Shown here: piece by piece, positions 24,516 to 57,799 of the stretch
Layout of the letters: every line of letters begins with the position of its first letter
Numbering within the stretch: the first letter of the stretch is position 1
Assembly (NCBI RefSeq): GCF_009834535.1
Contig: NC_045696.1
Span: forward strand, 6,016,001-6,080,000
DNA length: 64,000 bases
Direction: 5' to 3'
DNA from: Camelus ferus
Taxonomy: Eukaryota
Made by a program: the position numbers and the translations under genes
Notes under the pieces: model-generated
What the model saw: the letters and a program-made list of their open reading frames with translations, nothing else
Told to the model about the DNA's origin: nothing
Databases searched by the model: none

Positions 24516-26010
24516 GAGCCGACCTCACCTCCTTGACTCAGAGGTGACAGTCAAGTTGTGGTCCAGCGAGGGAGCAGATGTCAGACCTGTTCCCAAGGCC
24601 AGTACACCCTCCAAATAGGTTCACAGAAAGATGTGAACAGAGCAGATGCCGGTGGGCTCCCTGAGGGGCCTTAGAAGGACATCCTTGAGGGAGGACAGGC
24701 AGGAACAAGAGAATCTGCCTCAGGCTCTGCCCTGGGACCCTTGGGGTTTTTTTTCCAAACACTCCTTGTATATAGTGTTTCCCAAACTTTTACTATCTGT
24801 GATATTTGATCTACCCTCAGACAGCTGATTTTAGATGTTTTTTTTTTTTTCCCAAAGAGTCATCCAAAATTTTCAAACAATGAAGAGGAGATGCTGTTTC
24901 AGGCTGGTAGGAATATTGTCAGTGTCTGATCAGGGAGAGAGGTGGTGTCCCCACTCTTCCCCAGATCTCTCCATCTCTTTCAATGATAGAGAACTTGAAC
25001 CATCCAGAGGGTTTCTTTTCTTATTATTTAAACTGGAAATCCCAGCTCGCTGTGAAAGGTCATAGTGACTGGCAGTGAATAAAAAATCAATGGCTTGGAG
25101 AGGACTTAGGTCCAAATAGACCCAAAAACCAGGGAGAGATTTCTCCCTGAAGAAATCTTTCTGAAGAAAGCGCTCTGCTTTCCTGAAGGATCTCAGATGC
25201 TTCCGGGAAAGCCCAAGTCACTGGGAGGTGGGGGGGACCACTAACTCCCCTCCCCACCCCCACCACTCCCACCCCTGGCGGGTCCTCACCACCCAGCAGG
25301 TCCCTTCCCCTCAGAAGCTCCTCTCCCTGAATTACACATCGGTGGGGTTTACTTGAAGTGATTAACTGAACGTCACATAGAAATGGAAACCGAACTAGAG
25401 AGATGAGTAAGATATCCACTCACCTGACTTATCAGTGAGAAACACTGAATGCAGTCCTTTTCCCAGTAATTCCATCAGCATGTTTGCAAGTGCTCCTGAC
25501 TCAGGGAAAAGGTTCCCCACTGGCTCTAAGAGCCCGGTGCCCACCGAGCCTCAGTCTGTGTGGGGTTGGGGTGGACCTTGAGTAGATCTAAGCGGGACCG
25601 ATGTGGGAAGAGAAGGTGAAGAAGGGAAGGAGGATGGGAGGTGGGAAAGATGGGGGAAAGAGGTGGGACGGGGAGGGAAGGGGAGGCGGGAGGCTGATGG
25701 GGACAAGACTGAGCTGGGCGGACAGGGAAGGGAAGGGGCGGAGACTCTGCTCTTCAGAGACACGGGTTCAGGCCCTGCTCTGGCCCCACCAGCTACGGGA
25801 CTCCAACCTGCTTCTCACCTGGAGACTGGAGACCCCACGCACACCTCAGAGGATCGCGTGAGGGCTGTCACCTGCACGTAGATAGGGAGGTGGGCGCCCA
25901 GATGTTGGAAAGGCAGGTGACGTAGGCCTGATGTGGCCTGTCACCGGGAGCCGCTGCTCACCTGGGCTTCAAGGACAGAGCTTTCTTCAGTGTCTGAGCT
26001 CAGTCCCTGT

Positions 26011-26024
26011 GTTGCCATGGAAAC
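26011..26024. promoter_or_regulatory. RFX X-box motif GTTGCCATGGAAAC
   Basis: Exact match to the palindromic consensus GTTNCCATGGNAAC; function untested. Confidence 0.45.
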
Positions 26025-27330
26025 CACTCCCACTCCTCCACCTGCTCTTCTCTCTCAACCATCCTGGTCCTTCTGGATCAGATGCCCGCGGCCGCCCCCC
26101 GTCAGGAGCTGCCGCACCAGAGATGGCGCCGTGGTCCCCAGAGCCCCAGGGCAGCCCAGCTGCCAGCCAGCTTCTCCTCCCTGAAGCTCTCGATATGGGG
26201 GCCCCGGCCCCCAGTCGTCTGTTGGCCCCAGTCCCACAGGAACCGAGCTGGGGGTGTCAGTGCTCAGGGCCCTGTCATTTCACCCCATTCCCAGTGTGTT
26301 CTCAGCATCTCAGTGACCCAAGAATCACTGAGGGAGACCAGACTTTCCACACTTGTCTCTTTCTCCCTGAGCTCAAAGTGTGAAATACGGGTTTCACGTT
26401 TCACTGGCAACATCATTCTTACCAGCACACCCCACCCCCACTCCATGTCCTGCCGTGGTTTCCTGGCCACCTCAGTGTCACAGCTCAGAGACTATAAATA
26501 GCAAGTCCCTTTTCCAAACGTCCTCTGGTAAATGGCGTGGCCCTGGAAACCAGGCTGCGCTGTCTTCCAGGTGGGAGTGACCGGTAAAATTAAACCTCGG
26601 TTTCTTAATAACTCTCTTTTTCTTTAAACAAAACAAAACAAAAAAACCCATCTCTTTTTCTATGCATACAATTTAGAAATCTTTTCTCTATATACACAAA
26701 TTGTACCTGCATTATTTTTATTTTTTCTTGTTTAACTAAAAATTTTTTCTCTTTAGTTTTACATTTTCCTTTGGTACTGAAATAACAAAATCGCCTTGTA
26801 CATGCTTTGTAGTCTTTCTGTGTGTGTGTAAGTCTGTGTGTAATGTGTGTGTGTGTCCGTATGTGATTATCACCAATAGAAAACTTTTGTTTTCACTTTA
26901 TATAATTGAAAAATGTCTAAACAACAAACGGTATTTTAAACAAAATGATAAAGGTTAAAAATATAATAAAGCAACAAAAAAAGAGAGCAAAATGTCAACT
27001 CCTCTAACTTATCCAATGATTTTAGACCATTTAATAAAAATTTATGAAGTTTGAGTGGTACTGTGATGAAATGGTTTTTTTTTTTTGCATTGTGTTTTAA
27101 AAACAATCTAATTTGTTCAAGCAAATATAAGATTACCTGTACAGATTTCTAATAACAGCTCAGAGAAGATAGAAATGGTTTTCATTATTTCAAATATCTC
27201 TATCCATGTTAAATTCCAATGATGGCTTAAGAAGTAGTGATTTAAATTAAATACATTCCTTACACAATCTTATTCTACAGGATGCAAGACATACGAATAA
27301 ATTATTCATAAGAATCGCATTAAATGAAAC

Positions 27331-27336
27331 TTTATT
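27331..27336 (-). terminator. Candidate polyadenylation signal for retrogene copy A
   Basis: AATAAA about 170 nt after the stop, inside AT-rich UTR-like sequence. Confidence 0.55.
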
Positions 27337-27411
27337 TGAAAAAAACCTTACAAACTATAACTTATAAACTATATGAATGAAAAATCAGTTATGTTACAGG
27401 AGCTAAACTAA

Positions 27412-29604
27412 AAAGAGAAAAATCAAAATTACTTTCAAAAGAGAGCACACGTGCGGATGTTGTGCTGTGGTTGTGAGCGTCTGGACCGGCTGCTGTGAGC
27501 TGAGTCACACCTGCAGGTGACCGCAGGTCCCTGCTCCCTCACCGCGGTGCCCTCCTCCTTCCTGGGGGGCCTGATGGCCCAGGCCCCCCCCCCCCGACAC
27601 TGCCAGTCCCCTGGGGGCTGCGGGCGGAGCAGCAGGAGCACCAGGGCCCCTGGGGGGAGGCTGGACGTTGGATTCGACCTGCGCCAGCATCTGCCGGGTG
27701 CGGTCACTCTCCTGTCGCAGCTCCTGGAGCTTTCTCTTGGTGGCCACCGCCGCCAGCCAGCCTTCCCCAGCTCTTTTCTCTTGGAAGTGGATCTTCTTGA
27801 GGTGGTAGGAGGTGGTTCTCTCCAATTCCTCGCCTGCGTCTTGGGCCATCTTCTTGCAGAGGTTGTGCATCTGACGTGTGGAGTCCAGGTCTCTACACAC
27901 GTGGGTGAGTTGCTTCTCAACTTGTAAGCAGCGAGCTTCCACCTGGGACAACTCTCTGTGAAGCTGCGTCACACAGTCGTCATAGGCGTCAGGCAGACTT
28001 TGAAGCTTCAGCTTCAGCTGCTCAATCTCACCATCGAGCCGGGAATTCTCACCCTTCACAGAGGCTTCTTCTGTTTGGAGACTTGTAACTTGTGCTGTAA
28101 GCTCTTGGATCATCTGCTTTTCTTCCCGCAGGCGCCTGGCTGTCCCCTGATGTTCCTCTTGGGGACGGGGAAGGGGCACACTGCGGCCAGCATCACCAGT
28201 GACACCCTTCAGATCGCCCTCCGCCCCGTGGACAGGGCGATGGCCATCTTCTGCCCCCTCCTTCTGCTGGATGTCTGCGCGCCCGCCACCCGCGGGGCCC
28301 CCACGGAGGCGGGGCGAGGGGCTGGCCTTCAGCAGGTGGTCCGCGACGGATCTGAGTCGGCTGATTCTGTCTTGCAGGACCTGCGCCTTTCCTGCCTTCG
28401 GCCGCTCCAGCCTCCCTCCCAGCTCCTCCTTTCCCTGGACTTGTCGCTCCCTTCTTCCAATTTCTGGGTGAAACCGCTCTGGACTTTCTGAAAAACCAAC
28501 CCTTTTATTCAGATCATTCTTTTCTTTCTTCTGAGCTCGTTCTCCATTCTCCTCTGATGGCTTTAAGGTGTGTTTTCCGTCAGCGACTCGGGAGAGTTGA
28601 GGAGGCTGGCTCTTCAGTGCCTTTTCTATAAAGGCAACATTGCCCTCAAACAATGTCCTTCTCAGGTTTTCTTTCAAGGCCCAAAAGCATAAGACTTTTA
28701 ACAAGGGAGGACTGGCCTCCGGCCCAGGTGGCTTGAGGGCTTCGTGGGCCTGAGTCGTCGGGCCCGTAGCCTCTTCACATTTTCCACAGACTTCGTCTCG
28801 GGCTGAAGACGTTTTTCCAAGCGACCTCCCCCTTCTTAAAGCGTACCGTCCACTTCCTGCCAGGACCAGCACCCCAGCACACACCAGGCTCTCCCAGCGA
28901 AGCACAGGCAGACCCGGGACGTGTGTCAGGCTTTCGTAAACAAGCAGCAGAGCGCCCCACAGGGGCTCCAGGATCAGCTGGAAAGTGGCCCCGCGGGCAG
29001 CCCGCAGGACCTCCATGGCGGCGAGGCCTCCGCAGCTCTGCCTCTGAGGACCAGCGTCCTGTGGGCCCAACTGCCCGCTCAGAACCCTGCGGTGTTCCGT
29101 CTCCAAGGTAAGCAAGCGCCTGCCCGCCAGGGCGGGCAGCTGGGCCGGGGGAGGGGAGGCCAGCCAGGTCCTGGTCCGCAGTTGTCCCTAACGTCGCTGG
29201 CAGTGGAAAGCGACCTCACTTACCCAGGCCCTGGGGGAGGGGGAGGGCTGAGCACAGCCTGGAGCTGGGCCACTCGAGGCCCGCCTGGCCCCACAGCAGA
29301 CCTAGGGGGTCAAAGCAGGGCCAGGCCGGTCCCGTTCTGTGCCTAAGAGGAGGTCAGGGCAGAGTGGTGGGGCCCTGTCCTGGTGAGAGCCAGGCTCCTG
29401 AGTTAAGGGTTCCCTCTGCTGCAGAGACAGCTGGTCCTGCCCCAGAGGTCCTGGGGATCCTCCTCCTCTGAGGCTCCTGCTCCTCTTACGCGTGGTCACT
29501 GTGGGAAGACAGGGGTCTGGACTGAAGGGTGACCCCAAACGTGTAACTGGGACCAGGAATCCATCCTCACAACTCAGGAGACTACACTGGAACTGGCTGG
29601 GTCT
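27412..29604. repeat. Direct duplication, high-identity core, copy A (~2.19 kb)
   Basis: Matches 47889-50082 at offset 20477/20478, about 30 differences counted by eye. Confidence 0.95.
27505..29016 (-). CDS. cTAGE5/MIA2-family (CTAGE-like) intronless retrogene, copy A, intact 503 aa
   Basis: ATG in gccgccATGG at 29016; open to TGA at 27505. ELTAQVTSLQTEEASVKGENSRL...QLHREL...GEELERTTSYH...EKRAGEGWLAA...LRQESDRTRQML aligns from memory with cTAGE5 [23 protein letters not shown]...KLHRKL...EEELERTIHSY...EKKAHDNWLAA...LRKENAHNRQKL; N-terminal WESLVCAGVLVL resembles the cTAGE5 TM WELVICAAVVGF. Confidence 0.82.
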   Translation of the reverse strand: MEVLRAARGATFQLILEPLWGALLLVYESLTHVPGLPVLRWESLVCAGVLVLAGSGRYALRRGRSLGKTSSARDEVCGKCEEATGPTTQAHEALKPPGPEASPPLLKVLCFWALKENLRRTLFEGNVAFIEKALKSQPPQLSRVADGKHTLKPSEENGERAQKKEKNDLNKRVGFSESPERFHPEIGRRERQVQGKEELGGRLERPKAGKAQVLQDRISRLRSVADHLLKASPSPRLRGGPAGGGRADIQQKEGAEDGHRPVHGAEGDLKGVTGDAGRSVPLPRPQEEHQGTARRLREEKQMIQELTAQVTSLQTEEASVKGENSRLDGEIEQLKLKLQSLPDAYDDCVTQLHRELSQVEARCLQVEKQLTHVCRDLDSTRQMHNLCKKMAQDAGEELERTTSYHLKKIHFQEKRAGEGWLAAVATKRKLQELRQESDRTRQMLAQVESNVQPPPRGPGAPAAPPAAPRGLAVSGGGGLGHQAPQEGGGHRGEGAGTCGHLQV

Positions 29605-31469
29605 CATAATTTCGTGGATTCTGTGCAGCCAGCATGTCCCTGTTTAATCCAAGTTTTCCTAGAAGGGGTGACTCTGACAAGGGCTGTGACAGTGTCCCAG
29701 GTTCCTTATGTCCTGTGGCCCTGGCGTATTTGGCTCATGCTTCCCAGTGAGTCTCTAATCCATTCGGTTATCTTCCCACATGGACCTCTGGGGAAGGAGA
29801 GGTCCTTCTTTCTGCTTTATTTGGGCCCATTTATTTCATTAAATCACATCTTGCTCTGCTGACATCTCTCAGGCCACCTGTAGGCTCAGAACTTCCTCGT
29901 CTATCCCCTGGGACTCTGCCGTGACAGGCTGGTCCCCATTCCCTTAGCAAAGAGGGAAATGACAGAATCCTCTGAGGCCAGTCTGAGGGCTCTGACTCAT
30001 AACAGGGCGCAAGAGCCCCGGGGGACAGCGGTGAAGTTGGGCCTCGGGCCCCTCCCCGGGGAAGTCAGAGCCCTTTCACGGCACCAGAGCCAGCCCTGCA
30101 GCTGCAAGTGATGGTTGGTTTTTAAAAAGGGCCTGAAATGGGATCACACATGATCGCATCATGATATTCTCTCCAGCACCAAGCCGGCCCTAACAAGAGA
30201 GAAGCGGAGTTAAAATACTGCCCCAGAAAGAAGTACAGGATATGTCAAAGCTTCAGAGAAACTGGGGTCAGTGGAGGAGGGGGCAGGGCAGCGGCAGTTG
30301 CCTTTGTGATCAGCCTTGTGTGAGTGCTGGAAAATTTAAACTCCATGCATCTAATGCAGCAATAAAGAGTAAAAGTCACTGTCTGGCTCAATCCACAGCT
30401 AATAAATCAAAATCTAGGTGGATCCCTGGACCTAGTATTTTAGTATATTTGTCCTTGTGTCCCCAAGGTGATTGGATACAGAGCCAGGGTGGGGACCACT
30501 GGGTCCTCACAACCATGATGTCACCACGATTTCTTCTACTCCAGGGGTATATCTCTGAGTTATCTCCCCACCAGGGTGTGAGGGGACAGGAGGCAGACCA
30601 TGCTGGTCTTCTGCGTCTTGTCCACATCGGTTTTGTACATTGTCAAGGCCTGTCCCAAGGCCACCTTCACTAAATGCTCGCACAGTGGACGTGTGAACAC
30701 TGGACACGTGACAAAGGGTAGGAGTCTGTGAATTTCCTCGCTGCTCTTCACCAGACACAAGGCTTCCCCCTGCCCTCCGATACTGGCTTGGTCCTGATGA
30801 ATTCTTTTCCCACGTCTGCAAAGGGGAAGAAAATGAGGAACTGTTGGAAGTCTGTCTAAGCCTTAATGGCTTAATTGAAAACAATCTTATTTTGATATAA
30901 CTTCCCTAAACATAGGAATTTCAGTTATAAGAACAAATCCCAAGAACAATCAATGTTTGGACCAAATATGCTTTACATATGCTACAAATATTTATTCTAT
31001 GGTTACTTGTGATAGCAGAAACCTGGAAACAGCACCTACATCCAAACGTCCAAACACAAAGGGAAGCTTCAGTAACTCAGAGGTAGATTCAGGGTGATGA
31101 TGTGTGAGCATGGAGGGTAGAGGAGAGGATTTGGGGAGGGGGGATATGATTAGATACAGCTTATTTTCTGTGAATTTTTGTTTTGAGCAGTAGATTAAAA
31201 GGTGTTTATTACATTACTAAAAATACATACGTACGTACATGAGACATACCTGCCATGCATGGACCAGTGATAAAATTATGCCATGAACTAAAGAATGTAA
31301 TTTATCTAATTCAGAGGACTGGACAAACAAGCAAAAGAAATAGATTGCTGGATAGATAGGTAAGAGAAGGATAGAGAGATGTGACTATCAATACACAAAC
31401 TCATATACACATATAAGTGTATATGTGTTTATATACACAGATTTTATCATATAGCATGGGAAAATAAAA

Positions 31470-34400
31470 ATTTTTAAAATACCTTTTCCAATATCATCCA
31501 AAAACATGAAAAACATAGAAATAACTTAACAGAAGGTATGTATGACCTCTACTGTGAAAATTGTAAAGTGATACTGAGAGATATAAAAGAAAACCTGCAT
31601 AAGCAGAAATAGACACAGCGTTTAAGGTTTAGTGGACAACACTTTATGATGTCAGTTCTCTCTAAATTCACCCATAGCTGCAACGCAATCCCAACCTAAA
31701 CCCAAGCAGGTTTTTAAAAATTAAAGTTGACAAGCTGAGCCTAAAATTTATACAGAAATTCAAAGACCTAAAATAGCCAACACAATCTTTAAGTAAAAAA
31801 ACAAATTTGGAGGAATTAACACATTTTAAACTGACTTCAAGATTTAATACAAAGCTACCATTTTACATCAGCACCGTCCTAGTTAAAGAATAGATAAAAA
31901 TAAGTCAATGGAACCAAATAGAGGTTCCAGAAATAAATCAAACATATATGGTATAATAATTTTTTCAACAGAGATGTCAAAGTAATTCAAAGGAAAAAAC
32001 AACTTTTTTTCCAAAAAAAGTAGAGACAAGTGGATGTAAAGGAATACAGACCTCAACCCCCACTTCACATCATACACGGAAGTTACTCCAGGAGAGAACT
32101 GGACCTAATCATAACAACTAAAGCTGTAAAGCTTCTAGAAGAAAACCTAGGAGAGTAACTGACTTCTTGACTTTGGGGGTGGACATAACTTTACTAGAGA
32201 AAGCAAGCATCTGCAGAAACCACTCAATGTTAAAAAAAAAAAAAATTCCCTGTGATAAACTGAATGTCATCGAAATGAAAACTTCTGCTCATCCAATAGA
32301 CATTATTAATACACTAAACAGAAAATCCACAGACCAGGAAAAGATAGTCCTAGAAGTCTGTTGAGGGACTTCTGCCAACAATGATTTTTTAAAATTACTG
32401 CAGCTCAATAATAAAAATGCAAACAACTCAATTTAAAAGTGGGCAAAAGTCAGAATACCAATGGCACTTTTCATAGAAGTAGAACAAGTAATTCTAAAAT
32501 TTGTATGGAATCACAAAAGACCTCAAATAGTCAAAGTCATTGGGAGAAAGAAGAGTAATGCTGTTGGTATCAGGGTTCCTGATTTTTCACTATACTGCAC
32601 TGCAGGTCTGCAGCGGACAAAACAGACCAGCACTGGTACAAAGACACGGAGGTCAATGGAACAGAACACAGAAATAAACCCATGCTTATATGGCCAGTTA
32701 ATCTATAACAAAGGCAGTGAGAGAATAGAATGGAGAAACTAGAGCATCTTCAATAAACGGTATTGAGAAAACTGGACAGCTGCCTGCAAAAGAATGAAAC
32801 TGAACCACCATCTTACACCATGTACAAAAATAAACTCAAATGGTTTAAAGACTTAATAAGACCCCAAACCATAAAACTCCTAGGAGAAAACATAGGCAGT
32901 AAACTCTTTGAACTTGGTCTTAGTAATATTTTTTGGATCTGTCTCCTCAGGCAAGGTCAACAAAAGCCAAAAAAAAAAAAAAAAATCAAAAACAAAAACA
33001 GAAAAACGAGCAAAGAAACCTCCAAGAAACAAATGGAACTACGTCAAACTAAAAAGATTTTGCACAGTGTAGGAAATCATCAACAAAACAAAAAAGCAAC
33101 CCAATGAATGGGAGAAGATATTTGCAAACGATATACCCAAAAGGAGCCAATATTCATAATTATCAGAGACTGCAAAGCTACAGTGAGATATCACCTCACA
33201 CCTGTCAGAACAGCTATCATCAAAAAGAACACAAATCACAAGTGTTAGTTAAGGATGTGGAGAAAGGGGAACCCTTGTGCACTGCTAGTGGGAATGGAAA
33301 TTGATGCAGCCACTATGGAAAATGGTGTGGAGGTTACTCAAAAAATTAAAAATAGATCTAGGATAGGATTTAGCAATTCCACTTCTGGGTATTTACCTAA
33401 AGAAAACAAAAACACTAATTCAAAATATAAATGCACCCTTATGTTCACTGCAGATAATTTAAAATAGCCAAGATATGGAAGCAACCTAAGTGCCCATCAA
33501 TAGATGAAAGAATAAAGAAGATGTGGTATATATACATACAAGGAAATATGGCTCAGTTATAAAAGAGAATGACATCTTGCCATCTGCGACAACACAGATG
33601 GAGCTAGAGAATATTATGCTAAGTGAAGTCAGACAAAGACAAATACTATGTGATTTCACTTAGATGCAAAAATTTAAAAGAAAGAAAGAAAGAAACAGAA
33701 AGAGATTTATAGATACAGAGAAAAAAACTGGTGGCCACCACAGGGGAGGGGGTGGTCAGGGATTGGGCAAAATAGGTGAAGGGGATTAAGAAGTAAAACT
33801 TCCAGTTATAAAATAAGTAAATCATGGGAATGTAATATACAACATGAAAGATGGCCAACATAAGGAATATAGTAATACATTTGTATGATGACAGATTGTT
33901 ACTAGACTTATCATGGTGATCATTTTATAACGTATTTAAATGTTGAATCACCTGTTGTACATTTGAAACTAACGTAATATTGTATGTCAACTAGATTTCA
34001 ACAACAAAATAAGTAATTAATTAAAATGGGCAAAAGACATGAAGAGACACAATGCCAGACAAGATATACGGCCAGTATGGATGTGAGAAGACTTTCGACA
34101 CCATTACTCATCAAGGAAAGGCAGATAAAAAACCCCTCTGATATACTACTATACCCCTGTTAGAATAGCTGAAGTGAAAAAACATTGGCCAGATGAAGAA
34201 TTGCAGAGTATGTGGAGCGGCCAGAACATTCACTCATTTCTGTTGGGAGTGTAAAATGATACAGCCACTTTGGAAAACTGATTGGAAGTTTCCTAAAACC
34301 ACAAACATACATCAACCCTATGATGTTCAAGTCAATAACCAGAAACATGAAAACACAAGTTCACGAAGAGCCCTGCAAAAAAAATGTTGATAGCATCGTT

Positions 34401-34720: not shown

Positions 34721-35974
34721 GAGAACATTTTAAAATGACATTTATTGTTTTCTTTCTAGTTTTACAAGCAATACCTGCTCACTGCCGACAACTAGAAATA
34801 CATAAAAGCGTAAAGTAAAAAATTAACAATCACCTATATCCCCCACCCTTATCATTATCATTTCCTCCCAGTATCTGCATATTTCTTGTTTTTTCCTTCC
34901 AGCTTTACTGAGATGTAATTGGCATACAATATTGTGTAAGTTTAAGGTACACACCATAATGATTTGACTTATATACGTCATGAGATGATTATCACAGTTA
35001 GTTCAGTGAACATCCATCATCTCAGACAGACACAAAATTTAAGAAATAGAAATTTTTTTTTTCCTTGTGATGAGAACCCTTAGGATTTAGTCTCTTAACA
35101 GTTTTCACGTCTATCCTACAGAAGCATTCACTGTGTTTATCTTTTTAGACAACACATCTCTAATACTGCTCGATCTTACAACTGGAAGTTTGTACCTTTT
35201 GACTGCCTTCATCCAGTTCCCCTTCCCCCCACACCCCTGATAACCACAAATCTGATCTCATTTTCCGTGGCGTTTTTTTTTGTTTGTTTTAGAAGTATCA
35301 TTGACCTACAATGCTACGCTAGTTCCTGTTACACAACATAGTGATTCAAGATTTCTGTACATTTCAACATAATCGCCACGATAAGTTTAATTATCGTCTG
35401 TCACCAAATACATTACATAATTATTGACTATATTCCCCACACTGTACATTTCATACCTGTGACTCAATTATTTTGCAACTGGAATTTTGTACCTCTTAAT
35501 CTCCCTTAGCTGTTTCTCTCCTTTCCTCACCCTCCCCCGCTCTGATAACCTTCTGTTTGTACTCTATCTACAACTCTGTTTCTGCTTTGTTATTTTGTTT
35601 GTTGTTATTTGGATTCCATATATAAATAAATTCATACGGTATTTGTCCTTCTCGCTCTGACTTATTTCATTTAGCATAATATCCTCTAGATGTATCCGTA
35701 TTGTTGCAAATGGCAAGGTTTTCATTATTTTTTATGGCTGAGTTATATTCTGTTGTATATATGTGTGTGTGTAAATATACATATACATGTATCTCACATC
35801 TTCTTTATTTCCTCTTTTGATAGGCACTTTGGTTGCTTCCATATCTTGGCTATTGTAAATAATGCTGCAATGAACATAGGGGAGCATTCATTTTTTTTTT
35901 AATTAGTGTTTTTGTTTTCTTCAGATAAATACTGAGGAGTGGAATTACTGGATAATATGGTAGTTCTATTTTTT

Positions 35975-36317
35975 TAATTTTTTAAATTGAAGTATAGTCA
36001 GTTTGCAATGTTGTGTCAATTTCTGGTGTACAGCACAATGCTTCAGTCATACATGGCTATACATATATTCAATTTCATATTCTTTTTCACTGTAAGCTAC
36101 TATAAGATATTGACTATGGTTCCCTGTGCTATCACTCATATGTGGAATCTAAAAAATAAAAAGACAAATGAACTTATTTATAAAACAGAAACAGACTCAC
36201 AGACATAGAAAACAAATTTATGGTTAATGGGGGGAAGGGGGTGGGAAGGGACAAATTGGGAGTTTGAGATTTGCAGATACTGACTGGTATATATAAAATA
36301 GATAAACAAGTTTACAC
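35975..36317. mobile_element. 5'-inverted (twin-primed) L1 3' end insertion
   Basis: Minus-orientation tail to 36132, then the adjacent L1 segment in plus orientation; flanked by tctattttt duplication. Confidence 0.8.
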
Positions 36318-38118: not shown

Positions 38119-38299
38119 TTCTTTCTTTCTTTTTTTTAATCTTTATTTTATTTTAAATTTATTTATTAATTTTTTATTTTGGGGGGATGTAATTAGTTTT
38201 ATTTATTTATTTATTTTTAGAGGGGGTCCTGGGGATTGAACCCAGGACCTTGTGTGTGCTAAGCATGCACTCTACCCCTTGAGCTATACCCTCCCCCCT
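38119..38299 (-). mobile_element. Vic-1-like SINE nested in L1, 12-bp TSD
   Basis: Same head on the minus strand; TSD tgattcaatttc at 38107-38118 and 38300-38311. Confidence 0.9.
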
Positions 38300-40989: not shown

Positions 40990-41572
40990 ATATTAGCTTT
41001 TTATTGCTGTCATAACAAATTCTCACAAAGTTAGGAGGTTAAACAAATATTTCTTTAACATCTCAAGGGTCTGTATGTTGGGAGTCTGAGTTTGCTTACC
41101 TGGTTTCTCTGTGTCAGTTCACAGAGCTGAAAGCAAGACGATCAGCTGGGCTCCCATTGGGATGCTCCAGGGAAAAGCTGGTTCCAACTTCATTCAGATC
41201 TTTAGCAGAATCCAGTTCCCTGCAGTTGTAGGACTGAGGTCCCATTTCCTTGTGGCTGTCAGCTGGGGACCGCCCTGAGCTCCTAGAGGCCTCTCTCTGC
41301 TCCTTAGACATCGTCCCTGCATCTCTGAGACAGGAAAAGCATATGACTCCTCCTCATTCTTCGAATCTCTCTGACTCACCATCTGCTTCATCTCTCTTCT
41401 GCTTTTAGTCAGAGAAAGTCCTCTACTTTCAAGGGCTCATGTGACTAGACGGGGTCCACCCAGATAACCCAGGACATTGGCAGAGTGTGTTTGCCATGTA
41501 ACACAACGAATTCACAAGTTCTTAGGATTAGGGCATGGGCACCTTGGGAAGGGTCATTATTCTGCCCCCACG
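40990..41572 (-). mobile_element. MLT1 (MaLR) LTR
   Basis: tattgctgtcataacaaat...gaatccagttccctgcagttgtaggactgagg...cattattctgccccca. Confidence 0.75.
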
Positions 41573-42070
41573 TTCACTGTGTGTGAAGTTGGGAACAAAG
41601 CACATAGGTTGCACAGCCAAGAGCAGCCACTGAGTCCTGGGAGACACTTTCTTGACTGGAATATGGTCCTTGCTAAAAAATATAGCTGGTTCCATCTCAC
41701 AATAATGAAAGCAGCATTATATGAAAATCTAGACGAGAGTTATTCAAAAGTATGTTAGTTTATGTAGACATTGTCTTCGTTTTATTGTCTTGTCCGAAAT
41801 CTTCAGTTTACAGAACACTGCCAATATCCATTTGCATTTTTGCATAAATCTGACTTTTCCATAAACTGTGATCTATTCATGTTCTTGGGAAAATGTCTGT
41901 TAAATGCTTAGTGAGGTAATCTTTTCCACACATTTCTGATACAGGAGCCATGGACAGTGCTGTCAGGGAAACAGGTGATGCTGGAAATAGGTTACTCTGA
42001 GGACAGTTCATAGATGAAGGTGCTGTTCAAACAGGTATGGGTGGAGCAGGACTGCAGGGCATAAGGCATC

Positions 42071-42525
42071 TGTGGGGTGGGCTGAGTAATGGCCCCCGTA
42101 ACAACACCCACTTCCTAACCCCCAAACCTGTGCGTAGGTTACCTGACATATGGCAAAAGGGACTTTGCAGATGTGCGAAGGATCTTGAAATGGGGAGATT
42201 TTCCTGAGCTATTCAGGTGGTTCTAAATGTGACCACAAGGGTCCCTGTAAGAGGGAGGCAGGAGAGTCAGTGATGCTGTGATGACAAATGCAGAGATCAG
42301 TGAGCCGGAGAGAGATGGGAAGATCACATGCTGCTGGATTTGACGATGAAGAAAGGGGCCACAAGCCAAGGAGTGTAGGAGCCTCCAGAAGGATCCAGCC
42401 CTGCCAACACCCTGACTTTAGCCCAGTGAGACTGATTTTGAGATTTTTGACCTCCGGATGTGTAAGGAACAAGTTCTCTAAGCCTCCCAGTTTGTGGTGA
42501 TGTGTTACAGCAGCTGCACTAAGCT
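42071..42525 (+). mobile_element. MLT1D-like MaLR LTR
   Basis: aatggcccc...ggcaaaagggactttgcagatgtg...aggggccacaagccaagga...tttgtggtgatgtgttacagcagc. Confidence 0.8.
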
Positions 42526-45335: not shown

Positions 45336-47888
45336 GAGAACTCCTGCTGGTGCTTCAGTACTCAGCTCAGGGCCACCTCCCCCAGGGAGCCCTCCCTGAC
45401 CTCCCACCTCACCCGAGGTTGCTGCAGGCAGTCTGGGCGCCGGTGCAGAGCCAACAGTGAGTGTGTAGGCCTCCTTCACCGAGCACTCCTGGGCCCGGGT
45501 CCGTCTCTCCACAGCCCGCACACCCTGCTGGAGGAAACCTAGGGTTCACCTTGGTCTCCCCACGAGTAGCGCCCTCACAGCTCCACTCGGGTAGCCAGCG
45601 CCTCACACTTGGGAATCCTCCCCCTCCCCTCCAGCCCCTCCCGTACCTGCCCTTGGAGTCCCTGTGGTGGGACCCCCAGGGGTGAGACCACTGATCCCGA
45701 GGGCCGTCAGGGATGGCAGACACCTGGGGAGCCCAAGTGCTCGCCTGCTCAACCCTCTGTGCCCCAGAGACGCAGGCTTTCACGGGGTGTCATCTTGCTG
45801 AGTTTTTTTTTAGGATTCTCATGCAGAAGTTTTACTCATTTGCTTGTAGAGCAAACATACATGGCATTCTTAGAAAAAGTCTGAGTTGTTCTTCATTCCT
45901 CCCCTCTGACCCTCAACCAACAAAACGCAGCCCCATCTGTCCTCCTCCTCAGTCTTTGTGACAACCCCCCGGCGCAGCCCCCAGTGCTCCACGCAGACCC
46001 CTGTGAGCCCCCTTCCTCCAAACTCCCCCCTCCCCCCACCCCACCTTCCGCTCTCTCCCCGCCCACAGAGACCTGTGTAGGATACACATCACTCCGTGTC
46101 CTCGGCCTCCAGCCCTCTCCCCCAGGTCTGCACCCTCCCTGGTGTCCCTACCCTGCGCTAGAGAGATGTCTGTGCAGCGGGCCTGCTCCCCGTCCCCCTC
46201 TCCCCCTCCCCGTCCTCTTTGCCCCATTTCCCTGCCCAGAAACCCAGTTCTCAGGTCTCTATACTCCTGTCCTCTCTGCCTGGAGTATTCTGCCCCCTGA
46301 CTTTCCCAGGCCAACTCCTCTTCCCTTTTAAAATCTCAGCATAAATACCACCTCCTTGGTTTCGCACGTTGCGCGTCACCCACTGGAGCTGTCTGCAGGG
46401 CAGAGATTGCCATCCTTTGTCTCTTTTTCTTTATTCTCTGAACTCGTCCCTCCCCGGGTCCATGGGGAGGGGGCCACAGGCCTCACCTGGCTGCCTTTTT
46501 CCATCACTCCAACACCTATACGTTGTCAAAGGTCACAGACACTCCAAACATACTAAATAAGTGGATGTGAATGAAGGCAATAGACACACACACACATTGG
46601 ATCAAATAGGGTCAAGTGTGCTGGTCGTTCTCCAGGTTCTATGCGCCTTTTCTGGGCTGCTCTGCACCGGAGGCTGACTCCTGCCGGCCCTCCCCGGGCC
46701 CCCTGGGTGGCTGCCTTTTGCTCCAGCAGTAAAAGGAGGGACAGGACAGAGGCGGGGAAGGTTTCCCTGTCCCTCTGACGCCCCTCGCTGAGCTCAGATG
46801 CCGTCTTCGCCCCTCATCCTCCAGACCCAGCAGTGAGAAGAGCTTCCTTACTGCCGGCACCTCACAGCCCTCTTCCTCGGTCCCCCCGCATCCCTGGTGC
46901 AGCTCAGGTGACTGCCTGCATCTCAGCGCCCTCGGCTGCACCGTTTGGATGAAGGGTTTCTAGTTGGACCCTTACTGAATCATCAGGTACCTCTCATTTT
47001 CTGTCGATATGATCTATGAATCTTTTGTCTATATACAAATTATATACCAAAACAACACCATTTTTATTTTCAACATTTATTTAGTCACTTAAAAAAATGA
47101 AACTCTAACTTTACATTTTCAGCTACCCACAAAGCAACTGAATAGGCTGAGTATCTGTACTGTGGTTGGCGTGTGTGTGTCTGCCATCAAGAGAACACTT
47201 TTAAATTTTGACTTCATAAATTTTAGAAATGTAAAAAAAGAGAAAACTTTTTAACAAAATAACAACAGTTAAGAAAAAAAATTACAAAACAGAAAGACAC
47301 GGCTGCAAAATCTAAAGTACTCCAACCTGTGAGTTTAGGATTAATCTAATCCGATGAATTTAGGACTAAACTGTGAATTTAGGCGTACACTAACAAAGAT
47401 TACCTAGTTTGAACGTGGTGCTATTTTGTTAACATATTTGTTTTGTTTTTTTTTTTTGTTTTTACATTTTTTAAAATCAACAGAAGTTGACTAAGGTAAG
47501 TGTTAAATTACCTCCTCAGTTTTGTAAAACTAGCCATTGCATACAGAAATGGTCTTTATTGTGTTCAACTTTTCCATTCATGTCAGACTTAATGGATGCT
47601 TCAAGTCATCGTGGGCATTCAACTCAAATCAAAATAAAATACTTATTATGTGTCCATGAGAATTATACTATTGGGTCTACATTTAAATAACACTACCATA
47701 GAGTTTTCATGCTATTCTAATAAGAGTAATTGTGGCATCAATTTAGCAATAGTAGCTTAACTAAGGAAGGAACAAACGAAATCCCTTCAACAGAAATACA
47801 TGCAGATGGATATGAAAATTTGAGAAAATCTTATAAATTAAGTTTTATCTACTTAGAAAAGAACAATTAAGTTATAGTAGCTAAATAT

Positions 47889-50082
47889 AAAGAGAAAAAT
47901 CAAAATTACTTTCAAAAGAGAGCACACGTGCGGACGTTGTGCTGTGGTTGTGAGCGTCTGGACCGGCTGCTGTGAGCTGAGTCACACCTGCAGGTGACCG
48001 CAGGTCCCTGCTCCCTCACCGCGGTGCCCTCCTCCTTCCTGGGGGGCCTGATGGCCCAGGGCCCCCCCCCCCGACACTGCCAGGCCCCTGGGGGCTGCGG
48101 GCGGAGCAGCAGGAGCACCAGGGCCCCTAGGGGGGAGGCTGGACGTTGGATTCGACCTGCGCCAGCATCTGCCTGGTGCGGTCACTCTCCTGTCACAGCT
48201 CCTGGAGCTTTTTCTTGGTGGCCACCGCCGCCATCCAGCCTTCCCCAGCTCTTTTCTCTTGGAAGTGGATCTTCTTGAGGTGGTAGGAGGTGGTTCTCTC
48301 CAATTCCTCGCCTGCGTCTTGGGCCATCTTCTTGCAGAGGTCGCGCATCTGACGTGTGGAGTCCAGGTCTCTACACACGTGGGTGAGTTGCTTCTCAACT
48401 TGTAAGCAGCGAGCTTCCACCTGGGACAACTCTCTGTGAAGCTGCGTCACACAGTCGTCATAGGCGTCAGGCAGACTTTGAAGCTTCAGCTTCAGCTGCT
48501 CAATCTCACCATCGAGCCGGGAATTCTCACCCTTCACAGAGGCTTCTTCTGTTTGGAGACTTGTAACTTGTGCTGTAAGCTCTTGGATCATCTGCTTTTC
48601 TTCCCGCAGGCGCCTGGCTGTCCCCTGATGTTCCTCTTGGGGACGGGGAAGGGCACACTGCGGCCAGCATCACCAGTGACACCCTTCAGATCGCCCTCCA
48701 CCCCGGGGACAGGGCGATGGCCATCTTCTGCCCCCTCCTTCTGCTGGATGTCTGTGTGCCCGCCACCCGCGGGGCCCCCACGGAGGCGGGGCGAGGGGCT
48801 GGCCTTCAGCAGGTGGTCCGCGACGGATCTGAGTCGGCTGATTCTGCCTTGCAGGCCCTGCGCCTTTCCTGCCTTCGGCCGCTCCAGCCTCCCGCCCAGC
48901 TCCTCCTTTCCCTGGACTTGTCGCTCCCTTCTTCCAATTTCTGGGTGAAACCGCTCTGGACTCTCTGGAAAACCAACCCTCTTATTCAGATCATTCTTTT
49001 CTGTCTTCTGAGCTCGTTCTCCATTCTCCTCTGATGGCTTTAAGGTGTGTTTTCCGTCAGCGACTCGGGAGAGTTGAGGAGGCTGGCTCTTCAGTGCCTT
49101 TTCTATAAAGGCAACAGTGCCCTCAAACAATGTCCTTCTCAGGTTTTCTTTCAAGGCCCAAAAGCATAAGACTTTTAACAAGGGAGGACTGGCCTCCGGC
49201 CCAGGTGGCTTGAGGGCTTCGTGGGCCTGAGTCGTCGGGCCCGTAGTCTCTTCACATTTTCCACAGACTTCGTCTCGGGCTGAAGACGTTTTGCCAAGCG
49301 ACCTCCCCCTTCTTAAAGCGTACCGTCCACTTCCTGCCAGGACCAGCACCCCAGCACACACCAGGCTCTCCCAGCGAAGCACAGGCAGACCCGGGACGTG
49401 TGTCAGGCTTTCGTAAACAAGCAGCAGAGCGCCCCACAGGGGCTCCAGGATCAGCTGGAAAGTGGCCCCGCGGGCAGCCTGCAGGACCTCCATGGCGGCG
49501 AGGCCTCCGCAGCTCTGCCTCTGAGGACCAGCGTCCTGTGGGCCCAACTGCCCGCTCAGAACCCTGCGGTGTTCCGTCTCCAAGGTAAGCAAGCGCCTGC
49601 CCGCCAGGGCGGGCAGCTGGGCCGGGGGAGGGGAGGCCAGCCAGGTCCTGGTCCGCAGTTGTCCCTAACGTCGCTGGCAGTGGAAAGCGACCTCACTTAC
49701 CCAGGCCCTGGGGGAGGGGGGAGGGCTGAGCACAGCCTGGAGCTGGGCCACTCGAGGCCCGCCTGGCCCCACAGCAGACCTAGGGGGTCAAAGCAGGGCC
49801 AGGCCGGTCCCGTTCTGTGCCTAAGAGGAGGTCAGGGCAGAGTGGTGGGACCCTGTCCTGGTGAGAGCCAGGCTCCTGAGTTAAGGGTTCCCTCTGCTGC
49901 AGAGACAGCTGGTCCTGCCCCAGAGGTCCCGGGGATCCCCCTCCTCTGAGGCTCCTGCTCCTCTTACACGTGGTCACTGTGGGAAGACAGGGGTCTGGAC
50001 TGAAGGGTGACCCCAAACGTGTAACTGGGACCAGGAATCCATCCTCACAACTCAGGAGACTACACTGGAACTGGCTGGGTCT
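47889..50082. repeat. Direct duplication, high-identity core, copy B
   Basis: Matches 27412-29604. Confidence 0.95.
47982..49493 (-). pseudogene. cTAGE5/MIA2-family retrogene copy B, disrupted
   Basis: Near-identical to copy A, same Kozak ATG at 49493; 1-bp deletion in a G run (~48651), CGA>TGA at 48193-48195, 1-bp insertion at 48129. Confidence 0.85.
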
Positions 50083-50574
50083 TGTAATTCTTGGATTTTG
50101 TGCAGCCGTGTTCAATCCAAGTGTCCCTGTAAGGGGCTGTCTCTGCTCGGGGTGATTCAGTGACCTGGGCTCCTTCCCTCCTGTGTGGCTCATACCTCCC
50201 CAGGTGGCCCCTGAGCGGGTCTCCAATCAATTAGCACCCCCCACCCAGAGGTGGGCCCTGGGATGGGGACCAATACTCTGCTGCCTCAGGGTTCCATCTT
50301 TCATTTTGTTAAACCACATCTCTCACTCCTAACGTCTCTCTGGCAGACCCAGGCTCAGAACCTCCTTGTCTATCCCCGGGTGTCTACCATGACCTACTGG
50401 CCCCCAGTCCCTTATCCAAGAGGGAAGGGAGATAGCAGTCAGCTGAGGCCAGTGTCAGGGGTGGTCCTCTGGGTGCCAAGGCTCAGGCTGCAGGGACCCC
50501 ACAGAGGGAGAGGACAGAGGCTTGGTGGTAAGAGGAGGAGGCAGCTGTGACCTAATGTGAGAATAGCTTCCTTG

Positions 50575-56626: not shown

Positions 56627-56842
56627 TCAGTCCTCCGTGTCCGGCTGGACGCCCAGGATGGCGTGCAGCTCCTCGGGCGTGAAGCCCAGCAAGTTCTGCA
56701 GGTCGCACACGAAGCGGTACACGTAGCGCTTCCCTGACGTCTTGTGGATGATGTTCTTGTCGTAGTAATAGCGCAAACCCCGGCTCAGCTTCTCGTAGTT
56801 CATCTTGGGCTTGTTTTTCCTCTTTCCCCACCGGCGGGCCAC
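56627..56842 (-). CDS. ETS2: ETS2 last coding exon, C-terminal half of ETS domain to stop
   Basis: [71 protein letters not shown]; the C-terminus GVQPDTED indicates ETS2 rather than ETS1; acceptor tcccccag|GTG; TGA at 56627-56629. Confidence 0.98.
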
Positions 56843-57680
56843 CTGGGGGATGGATGGAAAAGAGTTCAATTATGTGACAATTAAGAAAAAGTGAATGACG
56901 TTCGCCCCTGACTAGGGTTCTGACGCGTGCTCGCCTGCCAGGACCCAACCATACAAGGACAACAGAGCTGCAGCCGCTTTCAAGCACGTTCCCTGGGCAC
57001 TGCATCCCCCGGCTGCTTGTCTGAGGATGGAGGTGAGGCCTCTCACTCAGAAAAACCTCTGGGAGTCAAGGGTTAGGAATCAGGGGGGTCCCCCCACCTC
57101 CGGGGTTCGCATGTAACCGCCACGTCCACTGGGATTGCAGCCACGTGACACTGTGCAGCCCTTGATGCTTCTGCCCCCGGGAATCAGGGAGGCGACAGAC
57201 CACACTCTACCTGTGCCAGAGACCAAGGTCCTGGAGGGGCTGGTATCAGACCTGCCCGCTGATTTCGCTGGTACAGCTCTGCCAAGCTCAGCTGAGGGGC
57301 ACGGAAGCCCAGCCAGAGGGCTGGCATGGAGCAACTAGCGGCTGAGTCCCCCCAAGGTTAACAGGCAAACTTCCTAAGACACTTTCAGGTGGTCAGGCGA
57401 GGGCCTCGGTTTACAGCTTGCACCTCTGGATTAGACAACAGAGCACGCTGATGAACGAACCCTGCCCGCTGCCCTGTGCTCTACCAGGGGACACCAGACA
57501 CTGTTTATCAGCAAAACAAGACTCCACGTTTCCCCCGACAGTCAGAAATGCCTTGTGTAGAAGTGTTCTCATCTGTGCCCTGGTGAACCCTTTCTTGTGC
57601 CGAGAATTGACTCTGGGAACCCCAAGTGACAAAATCGGGTTTTAGAGCTGGGAGACGGATTTCCTAGGTGCTGGACCTAC

Positions 57681-57799
57681 CTCGTCGGGGTCCGCCAGCT
57701 TAAACTCCCACCCGTCCCCGGTCCAGCTGATGAAGGACTGGCAGGATTTGTCGGAGAGCAATTCCAGGAGAAACTGCCACAACTGGATAGGTCCACTTC
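57681..57799 (-). CDS. ETS2: ETS2 coding exon (exon 9 equivalent), N-terminal half of ETS domain
   Basis: (G)[39 protein letters not shown]; acceptor ccccccag|GA, donor GAG|gtaggt; 119 bp. Confidence 0.97.

What the first reader, a model, noticed from the sequence alone, without database searches (positions are those of the whole stretch)
27505..29016. Intact, strongly remodelled cTAGE5/MIA2-derived retrogene in the gene desert downstream of ETS2
Seen: a 503-codon intronless ORF with perfect Kozak (gccgccATGG), a CpG/GC-rich upstream region and AATAAA ~170 nt after the stop. Known: cTAGE5 is an ER-exit-site protein with TM, coiled coil 1 (Sec12 binding), coiled coil 2 (TANGO1 binding) and a proline-rich domain (Sec23 binding). 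Here the TM-like segment with basic residues after it and coiled coil 2 are recognisable, coiled coil 1 is shortened and proline-broken, and the proline-rich domain is nearly gone. Inference: an open 1.5 kb frame despite very heavy divergence from the parent implies past or present selection. It could be a lineage-specific, possibly germline, modulator of TANGO1/cTAGE5 cargo export.
Basis: partly seen in the sequence, partly recalled or inferred. Interest (0 to 1): 0.8.

Follow-up and report, generated by a model that had tools for sequence, protein, structure and literature searches.

The report
Intact copy of cTAGE5-like retrogene family
This is a real, unbroken 503-codon intronless gene copy descended from the ER-export gene MIA2/cTAGE5, but it is one of many recently duplicated and mostly broken copies of an old mammalian gene family, and nothing shows that this particular copy is used.

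Summary
In detail: window 27505-29016 (minus strand) is an open 503-codon frame with gccgccATGG and an AATAAA 169 nt after the stop, about 27.6 kb downstream of an ETS2-like last exon. It is homologous to MIA2/cTAGE5, colinear from the first Met to the start of the proline-rich domain, and lacks the parent's introns.

It is not a lineage-specific novelty. About 500-aa relatives without the proline-rich domain occur in hippo, rhino, donkey, dog, otter, bat, pig, tree shrew and lemur. They form one clade beside mammalian MIA2.

In this genome the copy is one of five that are 97-98.5% identical in the coding sequence; three of the five are broken. Its flanks belong to an older locus, and its 2.1-kb core looks overwritten by gene conversion.

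dN/dS is about 1, and non-synonymous divergence matches the rate of neighbouring non-coding DNA. An open frame is expected by chance in roughly a quarter to a half of such young copies.

RNA-library contigs cover exactly this unit and not its flanks, including libraries labelled reproductive system. In two RNA runs they carry alleles and a 3' flank of other copies, not of this one.

Verdict: an ordinary new member of an annotated but unstudied family. The family is probably functional; this copy is unproven.

The parts
27505..29016 (-). Copy A: intact 503-codon intronless cTAGE5/MIA2-like coding sequence (P0001), stop codon included
   Evidence: open frame; colinear with MIA2 806-aa isoform, E 2e-29; 100% match, no stops
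28825..28992 (-). Codons 9-64: two N-terminal hydrophobic helices, matching the signal anchor and transmembrane segment of cTAGE5. The second is shortened by a 4-residue gap and is of borderline hydrophobicity.
   Evidence: helices 9-31 and 41-64, low pLDDT; 4-residue gap; best 19-residue Kyte-Doolittle mean 1.57, against 2.41 in MIA2 and 1.81-2.73 in five relatives
27667..28164 (-). Codons 285-450: long helix homologous to the front part of cTAGE5 coil 2. This is the best-conserved part of the protein.
   Evidence: helix 285-450, pLDDT above 90; aligned to MIA2 about 330-497; conserved columns cluster here
27508..27666 (-). Codons 451-503: short Pro/Gly-rich tail ending GHLQV. It stands where the parent has about 290 residues, including the proline-rich domain.
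27584..27595 (-). C12 run (poly-G in the coding sense, codons about 474-478). It is an indel hotspot that changes the tail frame in four other copies.
   Evidence: L002 +1, L003 -4, L006 +2, L004 and L011 -3; one X3 contig has one letter fewer
27412..29500 (.). Young core, 97-100% identical to copies L002, L003, L005 and L006. Probable gene-conversion tract. It coincides with the stretch covered by RNA contigs.
29017..29300 (-). 5' flank (5' UTR and presumed promoter), identical in all five young copies: 0 of 284 sites variable
27331..27336 (-). AATAAA 169 nt after the stop. It lies outside the shared core, in the flank specific to copy A, and no RNA contig reaches it.
26975..27419 (.). Old 3' flank of the copy A locus: 88-90% identical to the flank of pseudogene L011 (C1:28.315 Mb), only 66-75% to the flanks of the other copies that matched
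29492..29648 (.). Old 5' flank of the copy A locus: 87% identical to the L011 flank. The wider stretch 29480-29989 is 66-74% identical to the flanks of the young copies.
47858..50460 (-). Copy B (L005): sister copy, 98.5% identical in the coding sequence. It is a pseudogene, with a 1-nt deletion at coding position 842 and a 1-nt insertion at 1365.
56630..56845 (-). Last coding exon of the ETS2-like gene (C-terminal half of the Ets domain, then the stop)
57678..57785 (-). Preceding ETS2-like exon (N-terminal half of the Ets domain)

Best explanation
Copy A is an intact member of an old mammalian family of intronless genes. The family arose once by retroposition of a cTAGE5-type MIA2 mRNA. Early on it lost the proline-rich domain and most of coil 1, while keeping the N-terminal hydrophobic anchor and coil 2.

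In this camelid genome the family has spread by DNA segmental duplication around ETS2 and ERG and to two other contigs, and its copies exchange sequence by gene conversion. Copy A sits in an old locus whose 2.1-kb core (window 27412 to about 29500) was recently overwritten from the young subfamily. That, not selection on this copy, explains its open frame.

Inferred, not shown: the family as a whole encodes a membrane-anchored coiled-coil protein. It could join TANGO1/cTAGE5 assemblies at ER exit sites through coil 2 without recruiting Sec23/24. The copy that is transcribed appears to be L002, 20 kb beyond the ERG-like gene. Copy A is most likely a near-neutral spare.
For: Homology and colinearity with MIA2. 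Parent with introns on C6, against one continuous block in copy A.

Family breadth. Monophyly: 18 of 18 short-family rows form one clade (SH-aLRT 100, stem length 1.11), sister to mammalian MIA2.

Copies in the genome: 48 matches, of which 3 are near full length without stops.

Segmental duplication: window 40093-57224 is colinear with C13 at 87%, including an Ets exon fragment.

Core against flanks: the core is 97-100% identical to the young copies. The flanks of copy A are 66-74% identical to theirs but 87-90% identical to those of L011.

Mosaicism: 167 of 276 pairs of informative sites fail the four-gamete test, and 69 of 120 when CpG sites are left out.

No constraint: dN/dS for copy A against the young copies is 0.62-0.87 (NG86) or 0.98-1.08 (YN00). 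Pseudogene pairs give the same values.

Between copy B and the C13 copy, the coding sequence has diverged 12.7% against 9.7% in 14,293 flanking bases. Their dN of 0.108 is about the flank rate.

Disruptions: 3 of the 5 young copies are broken, and a fourth has a shifted tail. The neutral chance of an intact frame is 0.24-0.47.

RNA: contigs of X1, X3 and X5 cover 27409-29105, 29477 or 29611, with zero depth in 26001-27336 and next to none above 29675. X3 shows the non-A letter at all 5 sites private to copy A; X5 does so at the 4 it covers. X3 also carries the L002-specific letters at 27552 and 28766. The loose end at 27412 equals the flank of the other copies.
Against: Copy A is the only young copy that keeps the whole ancestral frame to the conserved GHLQV end. 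This would also fit selection.

The X1 contigs are closer to copy A than to any other copy in the assembly: 9 coding differences against 22-25. They carry copy A's letters at 27864 and 27866. So an allele of copy A may be transcribed in that sample, but the kind of library is not on record.

Assembled contigs drop rare variants, so absence of copy A in X3 and X5 is not shown.

dN/dS of about 1 over 1.5-3% divergence has little power, and gene conversion blurs it.

The direction of conversion (copy A as acceptor rather than donor) is inferred from the flanks only. The transcribed strand was not shown.
Confidence: 0.78

Rival explanations
1. One reading: copy A is itself a functional, selected protein-coding gene. 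It would be a germline modulator of TANGO1/cTAGE5 cargo export, anchored in the ER membrane and pairing through coil 2.
For: The frame is intact, with a strong start context. It is the only young copy with the ancestral tail. Coil 2 folds as a confident 165-residue helix. Family members stay open in many orders. The X1 contigs are nearest to copy A.
Against: dN/dS is about 1 and equals that of pseudogene pairs. X3 shows non-A letters at all 5 private sites, and X5 at the 4 it covers. No contig enters copy A's own 3' flank or reaches its AATAAA. The transmembrane segment is weakened: hydrophobicity 1.57 against 1.81-2.73 in five relatives. The open frame is explained by recent conversion together with a neutral survival chance of 0.24-0.47.
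Confidence: 0.17
2. The whole camelid subfamily is decaying. No copy is under selection, and the RNA is incidental transcription from a retained promoter. On this reading copy A is simply a pseudogene that has not yet been hit.
For: 3 of 5 young copies are broken, and every older copy examined carries stops or frameshifts. Non-synonymous divergence is about equal to the non-coding flank rate. The tail frame is unstable at the poly-G run.
Against: RNA word depth of about 80-380 over the coding sequence, in runs of only 177-780 million letters, argues for real and fairly strong expression. The expressed L002-like form shows none of the frameshifts or the stop of L003, L005 and L006. Relatives in other orders keep frames of about 500 aa.
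Confidence: 0.04
3. Assembly artefact: the young core inside old flanks is a chimeric join of reads from different copies, so copy A as written does not exist.
For: There are five copies 97-100% identical over 2.1 kb. The homopolymer run is prone to length errors. Even the best holders among unclassified runs held only 0.80-0.89 of the sampled words.
Against: The core is short, and copy A has 5 private substitutions inside it. Two of these (27864 and 27866) recur in independent X1 contigs. I did not lay any DNA run across the junctions.
Confidence: 0.01

Closest known systems
MIA2, cTAGE5-type short isoform (parent gene; here on contig C6:43.91-43.96 Mb)
   Same: Colinear from Met1 through the hydrophobic anchor, the coil 1 region and the front of coil 2: BLASTP 26% identity, E 2e-29, 1-467 against 1-513. 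Coil 2 is a confident long helix.
   Different: No introns. The coil 1 region is mostly disordered and Pro/Gly-rich. The transmembrane segment is 4 residues shorter. Residues matching about 514-806 are missing, including the proline-rich domain.

In human cTAGE5 the proline-rich domain (651-804) binds Sec23/24 (PMC3128532, passages read). Coil 1 (61-300) binds Sec12 (PMC4164946, passages read).
Database proteins of about 500 aa named 'cTAGE family member 2/5/15-like' or 'MIA2-like': hippo P0005, donkey P0203, dingo P0169, bat P0018, pig P0210, tree shrew P0022, lemur P0028, Camelus P0002 and P0003
   Same: Same length, same start, same truncated architecture, and a shared ...LQV end in many of them. 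They form one clade with copy A.
   Different: Copy A is a camelid-specific recent duplicate. It is 97% identical to a Camelus ferus model and 28-59% identical to the aligned members from other groups. None of these proteins has a tested function. I found no paper on them.
Primate CTAGE retrogene family (CTAGE1/4/6/8/9/15; these names are recalled)
   Same: These too are intronless copies of CTAGE5 that are transcribed. An intact, primate-specific CTAGE5 retrogene is reported in PMC2394760 (passages read).
   Different: Apparently a separate, younger origin. In the tree, the squirrel-monkey 'MIA2-like' row and the squirrel 'cTAGE9-like' row group with parental MIA2, not with the short family. 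That the primate proteins keep the proline-rich domain and are about 750-780 aa long is recalled, not tested here.

Membership tests
MIA2/cTAGE5 (TANGO1-like ER-exit-site proteins) | Significant sequence homology to MIA2 | tested here: met
   316 library hits at E up to 0.001; all 11 named long hits looked up are MIA2 or cTAGE5, at E 1e-12 to 1e-23; pairwise E 2e-29. Pfam has no model that reports it.
MIA2/cTAGE5 (TANGO1-like ER-exit-site proteins) | N-terminal signal anchor plus one transmembrane helix | tested here: inconclusive
   Two hydrophobic helices, 9-31 and 41-64. The second has a 4-residue gap against MIA2. Its best 19-residue hydropathy is 1.57, against 2.41 in MIA2.
MIA2/cTAGE5 (TANGO1-like ER-exit-site proteins) | Coil 1 (human residues 61-300), which binds Sec12 | tested here: not met
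   The region is colinear, but residues 65-284 are 8% Pro and 11% Gly. The model gives only short helices (103-135, 186-194, 209-231) at pLDDT mostly below 50. Binding itself cannot be tested with these tools.
MIA2/cTAGE5 (TANGO1-like ER-exit-site proteins) | Coil 2, which pairs with TANGO1 coil 2 | tested here: inconclusive
   The fold is present: helix 285-450 with pLDDT above 90, the best-conserved stretch. Pairing with TANGO1 was not tested.
MIA2/cTAGE5 (TANGO1-like ER-exit-site proteins) | C-terminal proline-rich domain that binds Sec23/24 | tested here: not met
   The alignment ends at MIA2 residue 513 of 806. Only a 53-residue Pro/Gly tail follows.
Short MIA2-like retrogene family without the proline-rich domain (about 500 aa) | Full-length colinearity, shared start and C-terminal end, one clade | tested here: met
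   100% coverage at 59% identity to hippo, and a 12-row alignment; 18 of 18 rows in one clade, SH-aLRT 100.
Retrogene (processed copy of an mRNA) | Lacks the parent's introns; poly(A) tail and target-site duplication | tested here: inconclusive
   Intron loss is met: one continuous 975-bp block, against parent exons spread over 51 kb. No poly(A) remnant or target-site duplication is visible at the unit's ends, as expected for an old insertion that was later copied as DNA.
Gene under purifying selection | dN/dS below 1, coding divergence below that of flanks | tested here: not met
   0.62-0.87 (NG86) or 0.98-1.08 (YN00), the same as pseudogene pairs; the coding sequence has diverged 12.7%, more than the flanks at 9.7%. 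Power is low and gene conversion interferes.
Transcribed gene (this copy) | RNA carrying this copy's private letters or its own flank | tested here: inconclusive
   X3 shows the non-A letter at 5 of 5 private sites, and X5 at the 4 it covers. The 3' loose end matches the other copies. X1 has copy A's letters at 2 of 5 private sites, but its library kind is unknown.

The most novel reading that the evidence does not exclude
The short family lacking the proline-rich domain would be a gene family predating the split of the major placental lineages. It would evolve quickly and be expressed in reproductive tissue. Its product would sit in the ER membrane and enter TANGO1/cTAGE5 rings through coil 2 without engaging Sec23/24 or Sec12, acting as a natural brake or re-tuner of large-cargo export.

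Camelids would be actively amplifying and homogenising it by gene conversion around ETS2/ERG, much as primates expanded their own CTAGE cancer-testis genes. Copy A would then be a working member kept open by conversion from expressed sisters.
Probability: 0.15. Interest if true: 0.6.

Novelty: new member of a known kind. Interest (0 to 1): 0.3.

Why it matters
For this window the result is mainly a correction. An open 1.5-kb frame in a multi-copy, gene-converting family is not evidence of selection. The 'heavy remodelling' is an old trait shared across mammalian orders.

The family itself is the modestly interesting part. It is a natural cTAGE5 lacking the Sec23/24-binding domain and with a degraded Sec12-binding region. 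It has been kept open in many mammalian orders, appears transcribed in camelid libraries labelled reproductive system, and has no paper in the library searched.

Such a protein would be a ready-made tool for asking what coil 2 alone does at ER exit sites. The locus is also a clear example of non-allelic gene conversion giving an old copy a young core.

Tried and rejected
- **Pfam scan**: only sub-threshold coiled-coil noise (bZIP_1, Rab11-FIP3 and others).
- **Sequence search of solved structures**: only vimentin- and myosin-type coiled-coil noise.
- **Profile search with alignment A1**: no members beyond those.
- **Self-pairing of residues 280-455**, two copies: no answer. The score was 0.19 against a mark of 0.32, and the controls were not run. 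This is not evidence either way.
- **Raw single-cell RNA run X23**: 4 reads laid, none on the gene, so it shows neither strand nor transcript ends.
- **A 'goes back' joint in one X1 contig**, 29105 to 28130: I considered a back-splice. The flanking letters are not canonical splice signals and only one contig shows it, so I treat it as an assembly artefact.
- **Fresh retroposition of a sister copy's mRNA as the origin of copy A**: rejected. Copy A's flanks are homologous, though diverged, to the flanks of other copies. No poly(A) tract sits at 27412.
- **Literature**: nothing on a non-primate short cTAGE5-like family. The search was badly framed; none of its 15 listed papers held 'CTAGE'.
- **Earlier notes of this scan**: look-ups by place and by sequence gave nothing.
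- **Fold search**: not run, because a single long helix gives meaningless matches.
- **Not possible here**: nucleotide sequences of family members from other species could not be fetched, so no codon models across species were run. Synteny in other species could not be tested.
Full report
**Observation.** Window 27505-29016 on the minus strand is an uninterrupted 503-codon frame, kept as P0001.
- The start context is CCTCGCCGCCATGGAG.
- An AATAAA lies at 27331-27336, 169 nt after the stop.
- The 284 bp before the ATG are GC-rich (0.71), but their CpG observed/expected is 0.48, below the usual island threshold.

An Ets domain split over two minus-strand exons lies at window 56708-56845 and 57678-57785. 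The last exon ends ...[12 protein letters not shown]. Its best solved-structure hit is C-ETS-2, at 145.7 bits, narrowly above ETS-1 at 143.2. An ERG-like single-exon Ets domain lies 381 kb away in head-to-head orientation.

**What it is.**
- Pfam reports nothing above threshold.
- An exhaustive HMMER search finds 316 relatives at E up to 0.001.
- All 11 named long hits that I looked up are MIA2 or cTAGE5 of mammals, reptiles and a lungfish.
- BLASTP against an 806-aa MIA2 isoform of cTAGE5 type is colinear from Met1: residues 1-467 against 1-513, 26% identity, E 2e-29.
- The parental MIA2 of this genome lies on contig C6, with matched exons spread over 51 kb. Copy A matches MIA2 residues 191-511 in one 975-bp block. 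It is therefore a processed, intronless derivative.

**Protein anatomy.** An AlphaFold2 model built from a 12-row alignment (mean pLDDT 57) gives:
- one confident helix at 285-450 (pLDDT above 90), homologous to the front of cTAGE5 coil 2;
- two low-confidence hydrophobic helices at 9-31 and 41-64;
- a largely disordered, proline- and glycine-rich stretch at 65-284, where the parent has coil 1.

The tail after residue 450 is 53 residues, 17% Pro and 28% Gly. Nothing corresponds to the parent's last roughly 290 residues.

From passages I read, in human cTAGE5:
- coil 1 (61-300) binds Sec12;
- coil 2 (301-650) binds TANGO1;
- the proline-rich domain (651-804) binds Sec23/24 (PMC4164946; PMC3128532).

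One added detail: the transmembrane segment is 4 residues shorter than in MIA2. In this copy it is only borderline hydrophobic, 1.57 against 2.41 in MIA2 and 1.81-2.73 in five relatives.

**Not lineage-specific.** Proteins of about 480-530 aa with the same start, the same truncation and often the same ...LQV end are on record for Camelus, hippo, rhino, donkey, dingo, dog and jackal. They are also on record for raccoon dog, otter, panda, a bat, a deer, pig, a tree shrew and a lemur. Their database names are 'cTAGE family member 2/5/15-like' or 'MIA2-like'.

In a quick maximum-likelihood tree of 29 rows, all 18 short-family rows form one clade (SH-aLRT 100) on a long stem of 1.11 changes per site. 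That clade is sister to mammalian MIA2, inside tetrapod MIA2. A squirrel-monkey 'MIA2-like' row and a squirrel 'cTAGE9-like' row stay with the parent clade.

So the remodelling happened once, before Laurasiatheria and Euarchontoglires split. Frames that stay open after so much change imply selection somewhere in the family; this is an inference. Caveats: the tree search was short, many rows have unusual composition, and I chose the rows.

**This genome.** A six-frame search finds 48 matches. Only three are near full length without stops: copy A, L002 at C1:6474120-6475574, and L004 on C13.

Five copies form a young group. Coding identity to copy A and damage:

| Copy | Identity to A | State |
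|---|---|---|
| L005 (copy B, window 47858-50460) | 98.5% | two frameshifts |
| L002 | 98.15% | only +1 in the poly-G run, which changes the last roughly 25 residues |
| L006 | 97.7% | three indels, all frameshifting |
| L003 | 97.0% | stop at codon 434, plus a 4-nt deletion |

The C12 run at window 27584-27595 is an indel hotspot in L002, L003, L004, L006 and L011. Homopolymer assembly error cannot be excluded there.

**Duplication history.**
- Copy B's surroundings (window 40093-57224) are colinear at 87% with C13:48360770-48377981. That stretch includes a dead fragment of the ETS2 Ets exon. These are DNA segmental duplications.
- Copy A shares only a core with the young copies. From 27412 to about 29500 it is 97-100% identical to them. 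Outside that, identity to them falls to 66-74%.
- Copy A's flanks (26975-27419 and 29492-29648) are 87-90% identical to those of the badly decayed copy L011 at C1:28.3 Mb.
- Among the five young copies, 167 of 276 pairs of informative sites fail the four-gamete test, and 69 of 120 without CpG sites.

The simplest reading is an old locus whose core was recently overwritten by non-allelic gene conversion, within a set of copies that keep exchanging tracts.

**Selection.**
- dN/dS of copy A against the young copies is 0.62-0.87 (NG86) or 0.98-1.08 (YN00). Pseudogene-to-pseudogene pairs give the same range.
- An internal calibration is available. Between copy B and the C13 copy, the coding sequence differs at 12.7% of sites. 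The 14,293 aligned flanking bases of the same duplication differ at 9.7%. Their dN (0.108) is about the flank rate, and their dS (0.246) exceeds it, probably through CpG decay. CpG transitions account for 33 of the 76 variable coding sites.
- With 4.3% of single-base changes creating stops, and the indel-to-substitution ratio seen among the copies, 24-47% of such young copies should still be open by chance. Observed: 1 of 5, or 2 of 5 if the tail shift is tolerated.

The open frame of copy A therefore carries no weight as evidence of selection.

**Transcription.** Of the 24 runs listed, 20 hold the stretch or part of it, and 9 of those are on record as RNA, several labelled reproductive system. 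I laid 4 of the 24 on window 26001-31000.
- Contigs of X1, X3 and X5 cover 27409/27415 up to 29105, 29477 or 29611, at word depths of about 13-380.
- Depth is zero in 26001-27336 and next to none above 29675.
- The runs hold only 76-780 million letters. This looks like real transcription of the unit, not DNA carry-over.
- X3 shows the non-A letter at all five sites private to copy A. X5 does so at the four it covers; it has no depth at 29003.
- X3 also carries the L002-specific letters at 27552 and 28766. No contig shows the frameshifts of L005 or L006 or the stop of L003.
- The 30-letter loose end at 27412 equals the 3' flank of copies B, L002, L003 and L004.

So the RNA seen in X3 and X5 comes from other copies, chiefly an L002-like one that lies 20 kb beyond the ERG-like gene.

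X1, whose library kind is not on record, is nearest to copy A: 9 coding differences against 22-25 for the other copies. It has copy A's letters at 27864 and 27866 but not at the other three private sites.

Limits: contigs cannot show strand, transcript ends or absence, and the raw run X23 gave no reads on the gene.

**How it most likely works.**
- Shown: the family descends from a cTAGE5-type MIA2 mRNA. It keeps the anchor region and coil 2, and lacks the proline-rich domain and a folded coil 1.
- Inferred: the product is tethered to the ER membrane and can join TANGO1, cTAGE5 or itself through coil 2. It cannot recruit Sec23/24 and probably not Sec12, so it would modulate ER-exit-site assemblies and not drive them.
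- Untested: every binding step. The one self-pairing prediction returned no answer.

I put about 0.6 on the family being functional in some such way, and about 0.2 on copy A itself contributing.

**Comparison and novelty.** It is a member of the MIA2/cTAGE5 superfamily by descent, but it fails two defining functional features: the proline-rich domain and coil 1. It is a full member of the short, database-annotated 'cTAGE family member-like / MIA2-like' group. It is apparently distinct in origin from the primate CTAGE retrogenes, for which PMC2394760 reports an intact primate-specific CTAGE5 retrogene (passages read).

I found no paper on the short family in four searches. Supplements were not consulted.

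Two earlier notes of this scan, on other genomes, describe dead cTAGE5-like intronless copies. One is a pair about 22.5 kb apart; the other is in a primate, with a partial tail copy 4.5 kb away. These resemble the A/B pair here (20.5 kb apart) and the partial tail copies beside L002 and L003. I could not test whether they are orthologous.

**Verdict.** This is a new member of a known kind, of low to moderate interest.

Noticed in passing
window 29017-29300: The 284 bp just upstream of the ATG are identical in all five young copies, pseudogenes included: 0 of 284 sites variable against 76 of 1505 in the coding sequence. P is about 4e-7 at the coding rate, and by my own arithmetic about 3e-4 if CpG transitions are discounted. 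A very recent conversion tract, a hypomethylated germline promoter, or a separate element all remain possible. A donor-like CAAG|GTAAGC on the + strand sits at about 29103-29113, where RNA depth drops.
   Followed up: partly
window 47858-50460: A second, frameshifted copy of the same gene (copy B) lies 7 kb downstream of the ETS2-like last exon. Its 17-kb surroundings (window 40093-57224) are duplicated at 87% identity on contig C13, together with a dead fragment of the Ets exon, next to the nearly intact copy L004.
   Followed up: yes
G000:C1:6474120-6475574 (L002), with a partial tail copy at C1:6478177-6478542; likewise C1:6610029-6611516 (L003) with C1:6607057-6607362: Two full copies each have a partial copy of only the last roughly 120 codons about 3 kb away. 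An earlier scan note reports a similar full-plus-tail pair in a primate, so the arrangement may be old. L002, 20 kb beyond the ERG-like Ets exon, appears to be the copy that is transcribed.
   Followed up: partly
window 27584-27595: A C12 homopolymer (poly-G in the coding sense) differs in length between copies (+1, -4, +2, -3) and in one X3 RNA contig (-1). This switches the C-terminal tail between the conserved ...GHLQV frame and read-through frames. Assembly error is possible.
   Followed up: partly
window 33340-34008 and 35283-35983: An inverted repeat of about 700 bp at 69.5% identity. The stretch 30910-34004 recurs, at 67-73% identity, next to family copies on C1:6.757-6.760 Mb and C34:1.587-1.590 Mb. 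It is probably part of the ancestral flank or an interspersed repeat.
   Followed up: no
window 38221-38293 (minus strand): A tRNA-like match just above the Rfam gathering score (31.2 against 29 bits). In a mammalian intergenic stretch this is most likely a SINE-derived or decayed tRNA copy.
   Followed up: no
many contigs of G000 (for example C17:39053211-39053765, C19:21061158-21061709): MIA2 residues 1-194 hit dozens of open frames of about 200-300 aa at 31-38% identity all over the genome. This looks like coiled-coil resemblance to a dispersed repeat protein, not to cTAGE copies. That is my guess and was not checked.
   Followed up: no
window 28130-29105: One X1 contig joins 29105 back to 28130 (it 'goes back 976'). 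The flanks have no canonical splice signals. It is likely an assembly artefact, but a circular or tandem form was not excluded.
   Followed up: partly
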